DNA of 64,000 nucleotides. It comes from Brachybacterium sillae (GTDB taxonomy: Bacteria; Actinomycetota; Actinomycetes; Actinomycetales; Dermabacteraceae). The position numbers are program-made. The stretch covers positions 1,116,001 to 1,180,000 of the forward strand of contig NZ_JAFEUW010000001.1 in the NCBI RefSeq assembly GCF_025028335.1, read 5' to 3'. How positions within the stretch are numbered: position 1 is the stretch's first letter; each line of letters opens with the position of its first letter. This document shows, piece after piece, positions 41,901-47,900 of this stretch.

Positions 41901-44900
41901 TGGCGCGTCCGAGACATGGCCCTCGCGCCGGATCACCAGGGCGCGGCGGGGTCCGACGGCGGGGCGGGCTGAGCGACACTGACGGGCTGAAGGATGCCTG
42001 CGTGGAGGGGACCGCGCTGCGCCTCCCCCGTCGAGCTGGACGAAACTGGCGGAATCCAGGTCCCGAAACGCCATTCTCATCGCACTACCGAAGCGTCACT
42101 CTGGAGGAGTCGGGACGTTGGCACCCGCACAGCACTGAGTGGGCACCACCAACGGGGCCGGAGCTGGAGATCACCAGCTGGGCATGCGGTGCCCACCACC
42201 AGCGAGGCCGGGGGTGGAGATCATCAGCGGAGCACGCTGTGGGAGGCGGGGGCAACATCAGCGTGCCACGCTGGCCGACGCCGCGACATCGAAGCAGTTG
42301 GCGGAATCGGCCCTGGATAGCGCCAACTGCGCGCCCCTCGAGTCTCACCGGCGGGCCGAGCCGGCCGCGGTGCGGGGTGGGCCGAGTCGGCCGCGGTGCG
42401 GGGTGGGCCGAGTCGGCCGCGGTGCGGGGTGGGCCGAGCCGGCCGCGGTGCGGGGCACGTGAGCCGGGCTGGCTGGCCCCGCTGGCCGCGCCGGGGCTAT
42501 CTCAACCCGGGCAGCTGCCGTGCGGCGTCGGCCGAGTTGCCAGTGAGCTCGCGCACGGGCGCCTGGCCGGTGGCCTGCGCCAGCTGGGCGAGTCGCTCCG
42601 CGCCGACGGAGCGGGCGAGGCTCCCGGCCGCCTGGGCGATCTGTGCGGTGACCTGCTCCGGCGGGGTGGAACTGGTGCCGGCGAACCATACCCAGCGCCC
42701 GTCGATGGACAGGGGTGGGGGATCCTGCAGCGGGGCGAGCAGCGCGTTGTGGCGCCGCGCCTCCTTCGGCGAGGGGCCGACGAAGTGCACGCCCCTGCCG
42801 GTCCAGGCACTGCGGCGCACCGTGGACTGCGGGAAGCCGGAGTGGCCGGTCTCGCGCCCGTACTTCCGAGCGCCGGTCACGGGCACCACGCTGCCGGGCA
42901 CGATCTGCTCGTAGCGGACTACGTACGGGCGCAGCCCTGGGGCGACGGAGCCGATCACCAGGCCGCGCTCGCACACCACCAGCCGTTCGCCACTGATGTA
43001 CAGCAGGATCAGGCCGAAGATGAGCGCGAAGGTGGCGATGGGCCCGATGATGAACAGCGCGTTCTCACCGGGGTTGATCAGGGTGAGCCCGGAGAACAGC
43101 GCCCAGACCAGCACGAATATCCCCACCACCAGCGGACCGGGGCGGTCGGAGTGGACGGCGAGGACCTCACCCACCTCGTCCCGGTGACGGCGGGCCTTGC
43201 TGCGGGCCGTCACTCCTGGGGGTCCTCGGTGCCGGAGCCCTCCGGTGCAGTGGCCGCGACGACATCCTGCAGGAGGGCCTCAAGAGTGCTGCGGGACACG
43301 GTGCCGACGCGTCGTACGGTGTCCTCGCCCTCACCGGCCTCCTCCATCAGAGCGACCCGGCTCCCGCCGGAGAACAGTGTGAAAGCGGTGGGCTCCTGGG
43401 CGCCCTCACGCTCGAGGACCAGGATCGTGGTCATGGCCCGTGACTCTGCCAGGCGAGCCGCCGTGGGGCTGCTGCCGAACTCCGATGCCGGGACCTCCAC
43501 CGGCTCCTCGTCGGTCTCGCCGATGCCCTCGGCCGGATCGATGAAGGCGATGAGCTGCTCCGGAAGCGCCGCGCCGTCCATCAGGAAGAACAGGTGGAAC
43601 CCGGTCGCGTCGAACACCTCCCACAGCACGCGCACCTCGCCGTCCATGTGGAAGAGGTAGAAGTAGCCATAGGCCGTCCCGCGCTCGGTGCGGCGCTCGG
43701 CGATCATGACGGCGTCGGAGGTGCGGCGCAGCACTGCCGTGCCCTGCAGCTCGGGCACCGCCACCATCGAGGCCTGCTCCTCGCCTGCGGCGTCATCGCG
43801 TCGGGGGTCGTTGACCACGGCGGAGGTGACGATGCCGCGCGCGATCATCGACCGCATGGCGGCAGCCGTGACCAGAGCGCGGGATTCCTCCCCCGGAGCC
43901 GACTCCGCCACCCAGGGGGTGGGCGTGAGCGGATCGTTCTGGAAGCCGTCCAGAGCCATCAGCTCCTCGTCGGTGAGGGTGACGATCTCCTTGACCTCCC
44001 CGTCCAGCGGCTGCATCAACAGGTCCGTGGCGACCTGGATGTCCTCGGCGGAGAAGCTGGGGGCGCTGGACGGCGGCTGCGGTGCGGAAGTCATGGTCTG
44101 AGCGTACGCACAAGCGGGTTCACGTGCACGCCGTCACCGATGGATCAGAACAGGCCGCCGAGGAAATCGCCAGCGGCGTCGAGCGCTCCGCCGACGACAT
44201 CGCCCGCGTCGCTGACGAAGTCGCTGACATGCCCGCCGACGTCCCCCGCGAAGGAGGTGATGCTGTCCCAGTTGTCGTAGATGGCGTTGCCGGCTGCCCA
44301 CAGGCCCGCGCCGAGCCCTGCCGCGGCCACCACTCCCAGCCCGATGGGGCCCAGGGCGGCGCCGGCGCCGAGGGCGACGGCGAGTCCACCTGCACCGCTG
44401 ATGACGCTCAGGCCGCCGGCGATGCGGTCGCCCCACCCGCGCCATCCGTCGTGCGAGGGGTTGATCATGTCCGAGATGCCCCCGGCGATCGCGAGGACGC
44501 CCCCGGCCCCGCCGAGGAACCGGCCCACGCCTCCGAGCTTCCCCAGGAAACCGGCGGCATCGTCGACCATCCCGGAGCGGATGAACGCCTGGGCGGACTG
44601 TGCGGCGGGGCCGAGGGTGCCCATCGCCTGGCGCAGCGCCATCAGGCTGCGGCCCTGCTTGAACATCTTCCAGGCGGCACCGGCGGCGCTGCCCACGGAG
44701 GTGGCGACGCCAGCGATGGTGCTGAGCGGATTGGAGAGCAGGTCGGAGAGCATGTCGCCGAAGGAGCGGTCGCCACCGCCGCCTCCGCCGCCCCCTTCAC
44801 CGCTGGCCTGGTCCTGCTCCTCCGCGTGCTCGCCGATCTCGGTGCGTCGGGAGTCGAGCTTGCCCGCGACCTGATCGAACAGGGAGGAGATGCGGCCGGC

Positions 44901-47900
44901 GAAGTCATCGCGGAACGAGTCGGCGTCCTGGCCCACCCACTCCACGGAGGTGACGCGCGACTGGAGGGTGTCGCGCAGCTCCATCAGGCGCCCGGAGCCC
45001 AGCTGCACCCTGTCCGCGTAGTCACGGAGCGCGTCGGTATCGGCACCGTAGAAGCCGCTCATCCCTGCCTCATTCCCCTGTCCGTGCCGCGCATGCGGTC
45101 TGATCGTCAGCAGTCAGGGTATCCAGCACGCCACCGGAGCACTATGGGGAGTACTCCCCATGCCGGAGGGCCAGTGGATCCCGCGCTGCCTCAGCGAGGG
45201 CCGACGGTTCGGTACAGGAACAGGTCGGTCCGGTAAGGGACGCCGATGGTGCTTCCGCGTGCGTGACCGAGGTGCTCGTGCAGGTACCAGTCCAGGTTCG
45301 CGAGCACCCGGTTGCGGCGCTCCGCGGCGGCGGTGATGACATAGCTGCGGGTGCGGGCCAGGTCGATCACGTCATGGCTGGGCATGGGGTCCTCCCAGCG
45401 GTGCACCCGGCGCTCGATGAGTGACAGCTCAGGACCGACAGCGGGCTCGAAGTCCTCCCGCTGCACGTCACCGGCATGCATGATCCGGGACAGCCGGTGC
45501 ACCCAGGGGATCGCAACGTCCAGCGTGTTCCACACCAGCGCGAGCACCCCACCGGGGGCCAGCAGCCTCGCCACCTCGATGGTGGCGGCCGGGGCGTCGA
45601 ACCAGTGCCAGGCCTGCGCGGCGGTGACGAGGTGGGCCATCCCCTCAGGCAGGCCCGTGGACTCGGCGGGCGCGAGGTGGGTGGTGAGCGAGGGGGCCGA
45701 CGGTCCTCGCCTGCGCGCGGTCTCGAGCATGGCGGCGCTGGTGTCCACGGCGGTGACGTCAAGTCCCCGCTCGGCCAGGGCCCAGGCGAGCTTCCCGGTG
45801 CCGGCACCGAGGTCGACGGCACGGGCGCCGCCGTCAGCGCCGGCAGCGGTACCGTCGTCGTCGGTATCGGGCAGGTGAATGAGGATCGCGCCGATGACGG
45901 CGCCGGGGTAGCCGGGCCGCAGGCGGTCGTAGTCCTCGCCCTGGTCCTGGAACGCGGCGGCGAGGGCCTCCTTCCGCTCGGCGCTGCGAAATCGCGGCTG
46001 ATGGCGGGAGGAGACGGGCGGGACGGTCGGCGCGGGTCCGGCCGGCACACGCGGCGCGCGCCGCTCGGACCTGGCCTGGGGCGATCGCGGGGAGCTCACC
46101 GCGCCTCCCGGTGCGCCACCCAGGAGTGGTGCAGCCCCGCGTAGATCCCGCCGGGCAGATCCACCAGCTCGGCGTGCGGCCCGTGCTCGACCAGGTCGCC
46201 GTGGTCCAGCACCAGGATCTGATCGGCCCGCTCGGCGGTGGAGAGACGGTGGGCGATGGTGAGGGTGGTGCGGCCGCGGGCCAGGCCGTCGATGGCCTGC
46301 TGCAGGCGCACGTCGGCCGCGGGGTCCACGGCACTGGTGGCCTCGTCCAGCACGATCACATCGGGATCGGCAAGGTAGGCGCGGGCCAGCGCCACCAGCT
46401 GCCGCTCCCCCGCGCTGAGGGACTCGCCGCGCTGCCCGACGGGCGTGTGCAGCCCCCGCGGCAGCGACTCCAGCCATTCCGCCAGGCCCAGTTCCGTGAG
46501 CGCGGCGCGCATGTCGCGCTCGGTGGCGTCGGGCCGCCCGAACCGCAGGTTCCCGGCGACGGTGGTGTCCAGCAGGAAGCCCTCCTGCGGTACCATCACC
46601 ACCCGCGAGCGCAGGGAGGCGAACGGCACCCGATCCACCGGCACGCCACCGATGAGCACCTGCCCGGAGGTGGGGTCCATCATGCGGGTGAGGAGCTTCG
46701 CGAAGGTGGTCTTGCCCGATCCGGTCTCGCCGACGATCGCGGTGTGGGAACCGGGCGGCAGGTCCACCGTGAGGCCGTGCAGCACCTCCGGCCCGCCGGG
46801 GTAGGCGTAGCGCAGATCCCGCACGGAGACACCCAGCGCCCCCGGCGGGAGGGGCCGGGCGTCGGGCAACGCGGCGGTCCGGCCACCGGTGTGGGGGTCG
46901 AGAGACCCGGCGGGGTCGGCGACATCGGCGGGGGTGTCGAGCACCCCGAGGACGCGGCGCCACCCGGCGACGGCGTTCTGCGCCTCCGACAGCATCTCGA
47001 TACCCATCCGCACGGGCTGGGCGAACAGCGACACCAGGAACACGAAGGCCAGCAGCTGCCCGGCGGTGAGCATGCCGGTGCTGGTGCCGAGCCACACACC
47101 GCCGACGACCACCAGGGCGGTCGCCACACCGTCGGACGCCTCCCCCACGAAGGTGGAGGTGGAGGTGGGCAGCAGCACCCGGTACTGGGCACGGCGCACC
47201 CCGCGGATCGCCTCGGTGCTGCGGTCGCGGGACCTCTCCGCCACGCCGTAGGCGCGCAGGGTGGCGGCACCGACGAGAGACTCGGAAACCTCCCCGAGCA
47301 TCCCGCCGACGGCGGTGCGCACCCCCTGGTATCGGCGGCGGATCCCCGCCTGGATCCACCGCAGCAGCAGGAACACCGGCAGGTACGCCACCCACACCAG
47401 GATCGCCAGCGGCCACGCGTACACCGCCATCACGACGGTGGCGAGGGCCAGCTGCAGCACCATCACCACCAGCATGATCCCGCCGAAGCTCATGAACTGG
47501 CTGACGGTGTCGACGTCGCTGGTCACGCGGGAGACGAGGGCGCCGCGCTGCTCGGTGCCCTGGGTGAGAAGGGACAGGTCGTGGATGTGGCGGAAGGCGC
47601 GGGTGCGCAGGGTCGCCAGGGCCGTCTCGGAGGCGCGGAACAGCCGCCGGTTCATGAGGATGCTCGCCAGGGTGGTCACCAGCAGCACGAGGGCGGCGAG
47701 GCCGGTGGCGGCGGCGACGTAGGGGATGTCCGGCCGTGGCGGCTCGACGATGCCGCGGTCGATGACACGCTGCACCGCGATCGGCACGACGATGCGCCCG
47801 GCGGTGGCGATCACCGCCAACAGCACGGTGATCCACAGGCCCTGCAGCACCTGCGGGGTGAGGGCGAGGCCACGGCGGACGGTCGCGAGGGCGCTCTCGT

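What a model noticed while it worked through the whole genome (the two positions that open the first line are those of the whole stretch)
43210..45062. Dispersed polymorphic Esx effector cassettes, each class paired with its own EspG-fold chaperone
Eight scattered genes (g00721, g01050, g01411, g01418, g01444, g01942, g01955, g02387) have a WXG100-like head fused to different tails, six lie next to a 260-295-aa partner gene, and three sit beside small lipoprotein-like genes, one repeated as an orphan tail-plus-lipoprotein module at 2621568-2622155. They are likely a polymorphic antibacterial toxin arsenal of the Esx system in which an EspG-fold chaperone class is dedicated to each effector class. 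That would carry the PPE-EspG principle outside mycobacteria and onto single-chain WXG100-toxin fusions.
Evidence so far: HMM of the head finds 8 long proteins and the 3 Esx proteins. Model of the g01049 family (pLDDT 88) matches EspG3/1/5, best E 3e-9, TM 0.57. 12 of 12 congeners have 3-16 matches. Among 30 fetched loci plus own genes the tails form 8 clusters: all 7 relatives' lipase-class (GHSQGG) loci have the g02388-type partner, 5 of 6 glycine-rich membrane-class loci have the g01049-type partner, the other classes mostly neither within 1.5 kb. Tails include PGAP1-like hydrolase and Endonuclea_NS_2.
(Added by a program. Inside this text positions count along the whole contig: contig position 1,116,001 is position 1 of the stretch shown here. 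"Call 12" and the like, gene names such as g00115 and contig names such as C1 are that model's own, and its searches are not shown. The text may have been shortened before it was handed on; [...] marks where a part breaks off. The agent that wrote the report below was given it as the finding of a first reader that could run no searches.)

Follow-up and report, generated by a model that had tools for sequence, protein, structure and literature searches.

The report
Esx toxin cassettes with cargo-matched chaperones
This bacterium scatters eight genes for likely secreted antibacterial proteins around its chromosome, and two of the cargo types sit beside their own helper protein, predicted to fold like the mycobacterial secretion chaperone EspG, which suggests these helpers are matched to the cargo rather than to the secretion machine.

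Summary
The window carries a three-gene cassette, not two: a WXG100-headed protein with a glycine-rich membrane hairpin, an EspG-fold partner, and a two-helix membrane protein (likely immunity). It lies behind a palindromic site that also precedes two esx genes. The genome has 8 long WXG100-headed genes (one frameshifted); 6 have a partner. Models of two partner families both match EspG; the third was not folded. In congeners, 36 of 36 hairpin loci have partner A and 29 of 31 hydrolase loci have partner B or C, never crossed. 'Each class' overstates it: nuclease, beta-rich and other tails have no partner, and partner-less hydrolases exist. The principle is already published outside mycobacteria (EsaE-EsaD); B. 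subtilis yfjB-yfjC-yfjD has the same toxin-EspG-antitoxin order. What is new: several EspG lineages in one actinobacterial genome sorted by cargo, no small helical partner gene at the loci, and partner A staying with the hairpin where the head type differs. An orphan tail-plus-lipoprotein matching another species' allele supports toxin-immunity for the hydrolases.

The parts
45144..45161 (.). Palindromic operator-like site (ATGGGGA-N4-TCCCCAT) shared with esx genes and other effector operons
   Evidence: present within 350 bp upstream in 39 of 39 hairpin loci
45116..45121 (-). Likely -10 hexamer (TANNNT), about 22 nt downstream of the palindrome
   Evidence: read by eye from upstream regions; not tested
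44145..45062 (-). 305-aa predicted Esx substrate: WXG100-like head, glycine linker, glycine-rich membrane hairpin
44778..45062 (-). WXG100-like head (W42-x-G44 invariant in 36 aligned members)
44265..44537 (-). Hydrophobic Gly/Ala hairpin, residues about 176-266, with a GxxxGxxxG and ending in a YDNW-type motif
   Evidence: hydropathy peaks 176-194 and 227-245; alignment
43210..44094 (-). Partner A, 294 aa, predicted EspG fold
   Evidence: model pLDDT 88; Foldseek top 17 listed rows are EspG, best E 6e-10; Atlas 0.96
42497..43213 (-). 238-aa protein with two membrane helices and a likely PH-like domain; overlaps partner A by 4 nt; immunity candidate
   Evidence: homologs follow partner A in other families (profile match 98%)

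Best explanation
The window cassette is one of eight dispersed genes for predicted Esx (type VII) substrates, and likely encodes a membrane-damaging antibacterial effector, an EspG-fold chaperone predicted to bind it before export, and a membrane protein that likely gives immunity. Shown: gene order, shared upstream palindrome, fold models, strict pairing. Inferred steps: (1) a regulator acting at the palindrome turns on esx genes and cassettes together; (2) the WXG100 head targets the protein to the single FHA-EccC ATPase, probably paired with an Esx protein made elsewhere, since no small helical gene lies at the locus; (3) partner A keeps the hydrophobic hairpin soluble, which I favour slightly over head binding; (4) the hairpin inserts into a rival's membrane; (5) the two-helix protein protects kin. 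The hydrolase class works in parallel with partner B or C and a lipoprotein immunity candidate. Soluble-cargo classes such as nucleases go without a local EspG.
For: Palindrome: 13 sites with at most 1 mismatch, 0 in 3 of 3 Markov shuffles; before 2 esx genes and 5 of 8 effector operons; 39 of 39 hairpin and 28 of 34 hydrolase operons. Folds: (partner B Z 11.2, rmsd 5.6, 216 aligned; next fold Z 4.5). Pairing in relatives: 36 of 36 and 29 of 31, never crossed; hairpin class in up to 12 synteny contexts. Other families: 14 of 16 partner-A loci follow a hairpin tail, 7 with a longer head; partner and hairpin trees share two mixed short/long-head groups that the head tree lacks. Hydrolase Ser, Asp, His invariant in 34 of 34; RR-type lipoprotein signals seen by eye; lipoprotein is the fastest-changing gene, median 38%; orphan module matches the G006 allele, tail 98% against own 84%. 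Precedent: YfjB is toxic only with EspG-fold YfjC, YfjD is the antitoxin (10.1101/2023.08.02.551746, section 10).
Against: No experiment. Partner distance follows head distance as well as or better than hairpin distance (Spearman 0.48 against 0.40; partial 0.43 against 0.32), and partner B follows the head more (0.57 against 0.43). Adjacent genes travel together whatever their function; kin are not independent (24 of 34 hydrolase loci are one orthologous site). Window-type tails are conserved (71-81%, flank 72-80%). The hydrolase family is in 213 of 251 genomes of the order, mostly single copy, and 6 of 6 chosen family loci have an intact triad with no partner, lipoprotein or palindrome. Partner A occurs without an effector at L118, L123, L135. 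28 of 34 hydrolase loci have the lipoprotein, nearly always convergent and never behind the palindrome (0 of 31).
Confidence: 0.55

Rival explanations
1. The partners are ordinary EspG/EsaE-type targeting chaperones that bind the helical head. The class pairing only reflects two or three old operons copied as units.
For: [quoted passage not shown] Heads cluster by tail class. Partner distance tracks head distance. Partner B lies upstream, next to the head.
Against: Partner A persists with the same hairpin under two head architectures in 7 families. Two class-0-like heads carrying other tails have no local partner (weak tree support). Partners A, B, C are nearly unalignable (probabilities 5%, 2%, 1%) although the heads align well.
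Confidence: 0.2
2. The proteins are Esx substrates but not killing toxins: signals, envelope-modifying enzymes or anti-epibiont effectors.
For: YFJ is weakly toxic and proposed to be a signal (10.1101/2023.08.02.551746). The Esr-linked Esx system of Schaalia limits Saccharibacteria through a glycine-rich effector (PMC13622651, section 7); this genome has the same kind of locus. The hydrolase family is near-universal and often has no immunity-like neighbour. The window tail is conserved.
Against: Allele-matched orphan tail plus lipoprotein; tandem lipoprotein copies at L032 and L055; nuclease and calpain-like tails on the same heads in relatives.
Confidence: 0.15
3. Partner A is the immunity protein of the hairpin toxin.
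For: It lies directly downstream in 39 of 39 loci and travels with the tail. 4 of 39 loci have no PH-type membrane or soluble candidate nearby. Orphan copies exist.
Against: EspG fold; the same fold lies upstream in the hydrolase class; in B. subtilis the EspG-fold gene is needed for toxicity and the next gene is the antitoxin.
Confidence: 0.1

Closest known systems
B. subtilis YFJ system, yfjA-yfjB-yfjC-yfjD (10.1101/2023.08.02.551746; reviewed in PMC10765036)
   Same: Glycine-rich membrane effector, then EspG-fold gene, then membrane antitoxin candidate; type VII link; conserved within the taxon.
   Different: No separate WXG100 gene like yfjA at these loci; actinobacterial Esr-linked Esx; up to three paralogous cassettes per genome; a second EspG lineage serves hydrolases. 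Homology to YfjB/YfjC not tested by alignment.
S. aureus EsaD-EsaE-EsaG with EsxB/C/D (PMC10653861)
   Same: Locus-specific EspG-fold protein beside a type VII toxin; similar Z to EspG (about 10 for EsaE, 11 for partner B).
   Different: EsaD is an LXG nuclease needing three small partners; here nuclease tails lack a local EspG, and the head is one hairpin.
Mycobacterial PE-PPE-EspG
   Same: Fold of both modelled partners.
   Different: EspG is one per ESX system and serves many PPEs; here several divergent copies sit with their cargo, with no PE or PPE domain.
EatA/Tap-type toxins of Actinomycetota (PMC13444075, section 12)
   Same: Dispersed helical-headed cargo, alpha/beta hydrolases and nucleases, lipoprotein or membrane immunity candidates.
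   Different: Those loci have one or two tap genes upstream; EspG is not mentioned for them in the text or supplements I searched.
Esr-linked Esx system of Schaalia (PMC13622651)
   Same: MoxR ATPase, transglutaminase, kinase, FHA proteins and an Ig/Fn3 protein beside EccC; a Brachybacterium species is in its table.
   Different: Its substrates pair with adjacent small helical genes; no EspG partner or palindrome is described in the parts read.

Membership tests
EspG chaperones | Sequence match to PF14011 | tested here: not met
   No hit for the partners or in the genome; only 11-12% of members of near Atlas clusters carry it
EspG chaperones | EspG fold | tested here: met
   Predicted models: A, E 6e-10, TM 0.57; B, E 2e-7, TM 0.47, Z 11.2
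EspG chaperones | EspG fold for partner C (contig 1583079-1583909) | tested here: inconclusive
   Not folded; profile comparisons with A and B and a PDB sequence search were not significant
EspG chaperones | Binds the substrate and is needed for its export | not testable with these tools
PE-PPE-EspG systems | PE partner and PPE domain; one EspG in the secretion locus | tested here: not met
   No PE/PPE hit on the effectors; all 6 partner copies lie beside effectors. A divergent EspG in the Esx locus is not excluded
YFJ-type module | Glycine-zipper membrane effector followed by EspG-fold gene and membrane protein | tested here: met
YFJ-type module | Separate WXG100 gene in the operon | tested here: not met
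   No short head gene beside genus hairpin loci
YFJ-type module | Sequence homology to YfjB/YfjC | tested here: inconclusive
   Only Atlas feature scores of 0.87-0.88 to YfjC clusters, a lead
Polymorphic toxin systems | Conserved trafficking head with varied C-terminal domains | tested here: met
   25 tail clusters among 124 long ORFs (two clusters are artefacts; low-complexity tails are over-split); hydrolase, nuclease, calpain-like hits
Polymorphic toxin systems | Orphan C-terminal piece with cognate immunity allele | tested here: met
   Hydrolase class: orphan matches the G006 allele
Polymorphic toxin systems | Tail exchange or fast change at the window locus | tested here: not met
   5 orthologous loci: tail 71-81%, flank 72-80%
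Polymorphic toxin systems | Toxicity neutralised by the neighbour | not testable with these tools
   No experiment
LXG/Lap and EatA/Tap substrates | Long helical head with small helical partner genes upstream | tested here: not met
   Absent in the genus loci; present in distant relatives of both tails
Esr-linked Esx system | MoxR, transglutaminase, kinase, FHA and Ig-repeat genes beside eccC and esx | tested here: met
   the beta-propeller of the Ig-repeat protein was not tested

The most novel reading that the evidence does not exclude
EspG-fold proteins have become cargo chaperones. Partner A grips the glycine-zipper toxin hairpin itself, whatever secretion head is fused to it, so one type VII machine is served by several EspG lineages, each for one toxin chemistry, and single-hairpin WXG100 fusions are exported without locus-encoded helical partners under one threat-response regulon.
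Probability: 0.35. Interest if true: 0.75.

Novelty: new variant of a known kind. Interest (0 to 1): 0.55.

Why it matters
What EspG-fold proteins do outside PE-PPE export is open: EsaE's role is unresolved (PMC12478183) and YfjC's is a guess. These cassettes give a natural test set in a non-mycobacterial actinobacterium: one machine, three divergent partners, matched and unmatched cargo, and natural head swaps. They also supply candidate effectors, immunity genes and an operator-like site for the newly described Esr-linked Esx defence pathway, whose transcriptional output is unknown (PMC13622651, section 9).

Tried and rejected
Complex prediction of effector with partner A was not available, so binding is untested. 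The deep profile search with partner A (job) had not finished, so its full range is unknown. RNA evidence: 4 runs with 6% of words, only short scattered contigs, uninformative. A PDB sequence search with the hairpin class gave only weak hits to a tape-measure protein and EsxA. Partner C has no homolog besides itself in a word-based search. Partner B had 2 weak hits outside the genus, neither beside an effector, rejected as chance. The 260-aa gene upstream of nuclease tails was considered as another partner class; it does not match A, B or C and resembles SUKH immunity proteins only from recall (no Pfam or NCBIfam hit). The idea that convergent lipoproteins have their own palindrome failed (0 of 31). 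NCBIfam added only sub-threshold WXG100 hits for the effectors. Three look-ups in earlier findings returned nothing. Literature searches found no description of these cassettes: 0 papers; 0 papers; no listed paper names Brachybacterium; only the precedents cited. Subscription papers are not covered.
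Full report
Setting. The window lies on a 2.66-Mb contig of 71% G+C. The nearest named homologs of the partner are from Brachybacterium. Positions over 64000 below are contig positions. Gene calls are my own codon-model calls.

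Observation. A head HMM built from 7 heads finds 3 short Esx proteins (731205-732387) and 8 long genes, one split over two frames in its head. Three have a glycine-rich hydrophobic tail (window, 833092, 1606207), three an alpha/beta hydrolase (1581625, 2166399, 2618510), one a beta-rich-looking tail (2147709), one an unknown tail (1575185; 62% G+C, between IS-like genes). Six have a partner; two do not. The window cassette has a third gene (42497-43213, two membrane helices) overlapping partner A by 4 nt; a homolog also follows the partner of the broken cassette.

Link to Esx. The esx genes lie beside an FHA-FtsK ATPase, kinase, FHA proteins, phosphatase, transglutaminase, DUF58, MoxR and an Ig/Fn3 protein, the layout of the Esr-linked Esx system (PMC13622651: abstract, sections 7 and 9, passages, one supplement search). 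A palindrome has 8 perfect and 5 one-mismatch sites against 0 in 3 of 3 third-order Markov shuffles; it precedes 2 esx genes and 5 of 8 effector operons. With up to 2 mismatches it precedes 39 of 39 hairpin genes, 28 of 34 hydrolase operons (ahead of the partner, plus 1 partner-less gene), 11 of 12 beta-rich and 6 of 7 nuclease genes. Perfect sites occur in 53 of 251 genomes of the order, the reversed control in none.

Partner folds. Partner A: pLDDT 88, EspG3 E 6e-10, TM 0.57. Atlas features agree. Neither hits PF14011. A, B and C barely align with each other. C is untested.

Pairing. 40 of 40 congeners have 5-25 head matches, 533 in all with the own genome. I fetched 100 regions around the best-scoring listed matches, giving 112 long relatives' genes after dropping two artefact ORFs and the short ones; the sample favours heads like the own genome's. 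Within 1.5 kb: hairpin 36 of 36 with A; hydrolase 27 B, 2 C, 2 none of 31; beta-rich 0 of 11; nuclease 0 of 7; a hairpin-like class 4 of 5 with A on the opposite strand; others 1 of 22. These are not independent: up to 12 synteny contexts for hairpins, and 24 of 34 hydrolases at one site.

Reverse test. Partner A is found in 27 of 251 genomes, 16 of them in 7 other families. In 14 of those 16 the upstream gene has the hairpin tail (one weak), one has a WXG head with no tail hit, one is orphan; two genus copies are orphan too. Seven have a longer head that the short-head HMM misses, though 3 still hit Pfam WXG100; in 3 of them a small upstream gene is visible, the other 4 loci are cut too close. 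Eight downstream membrane genes from these loci match the window's third gene as a profile (98%). On 20 chosen pairs, quick trees of partner and hairpin both group L125 with L124 and L127 with L128 and L131, mixing head types, whereas the head tree separates them (support 76); but distance correlations favour the head slightly (0.48 against 0.40). Physical adjacency could give the same co-transfer. So hairpin binding is a lead, not a result.

Hydrolase class. Ser, Asp and His are invariant in 34 of 34; the neighbours mostly show an RR-type signal and lipobox-like cysteine by eye. At 17 orthologous loci median identities are flanking housekeeping gene 91%, tail 73%, head 54%, partner 50%, lipoprotein 38%. 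The orphan tail is 98% like the G006 allele and 84% like the own gene; its lipoprotein C-half is 92% and 70%. That is a classic toxin-immunity sign. Against: the family is in 213 of 251 genomes. Of 20 loci fetched from 236 matches, 6 of 6 in the own family (three picked because they lacked partner B) have head and triad but no partner hit, lipoprotein or palindrome, and 5 of 5 such genomes tested keep EccC. Of 14 distant loci, 4 have a 280-313-aa upstream ORF, 3 a same-strand lipoprotein homolog, and at least 5 only a small helical gene.

Window class. Tails at 5 orthologous loci are 71-81% identical, like the flanking gene, so this locus is conserved, not polymorphic. 35 of 39 hairpin loci have a PH-type neighbour: the two-helix family, or a soluble bPH_3 gene divergent across the palindrome.

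Comparison. EsaE is EspG-like and serves EsaD (PMC10653861, PMC12478183, PMC11217815: passages). YfjB-YfjC-YfjD has the window's gene order and YfjB is toxic only with YfjC (10.1101/2023.08.02.551746: abstract, passages, section 10; supplements not seen; PMC10765036: passages). Actinomycetota type VII toxins with hydrolase cargo and lipoprotein immunity are described with tap partners (PMC13444075: passages, section 12, supplement search). PMC13355648 and PMC12558993: abstract and outline only, not used. The cassette works like YFJ but lacks its separate WXG100 gene; it is not a PE-PPE-EspG or LXG/Tap system.

Verdict. Real and coherent; a new variant of a known kind. Cargo-sorted EspG lineages, missing helical partners and a shared operator-like site keep it worth testing: 0.55.

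Noticed in passing
contig 1528176-1528604 and 2617528-2617878 (outside window): Small genes with a perfect palindrome upstream but no effector in the operon, near IS-like genes or an effector; possible stand-alone immunity genes of the same regulon.
   Followed up: partly
window 45144-45161 and 53 of 251 genomes: The palindrome is patchy across the order (up to 15 perfect sites per genome) and absent from congeners G011 and G202, which also lack partners A and B yet keep EccC. It recalls NarL/DosR-type boxes (from memory, untested).
   Followed up: partly
L045, L084, L087, L095, L100, L103: Tandem locus in congeners: nuclease-tailed gene, small immunity-like gene, then a second head with a disordered glycine-rich tail, each usually with its own palindrome; the tail recalls AesB of Schaalia.
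   Followed up: partly
L012:4140-4739 against contig 1575185-1576294: G035 carries the same low-GC effector gene with most of the tail deleted while the downstream lipoprotein gene stays.
   Followed up: no
contig 1606207-1607458: One hairpin effector gene is frameshifted in its head while partner and third gene remain; may be decay or an assembly error.
   Followed up: no
L158-L169: A long-headed alpha/beta hydrolase with a small WXG100-like gene upstream is near-universal and mostly single copy across the order; possibly a conserved housekeeping type VII substrate.
   Followed up: partly
L034, L048, L102: Heads fused to proline-rich repeat tails between a chorismate mutase and a molybdopterin oxidoreductase gene, with the palindrome.
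   Followed up: no
window about 42350-42460: Four near-identical 26-nt G+C-rich repeats just after the third gene, seen by eye.
   Followed up: no
window 41322-41972: DUF6318 membrane-anchored protein, convergent with the cassette and present at several orthologous loci.
   Followed up: no
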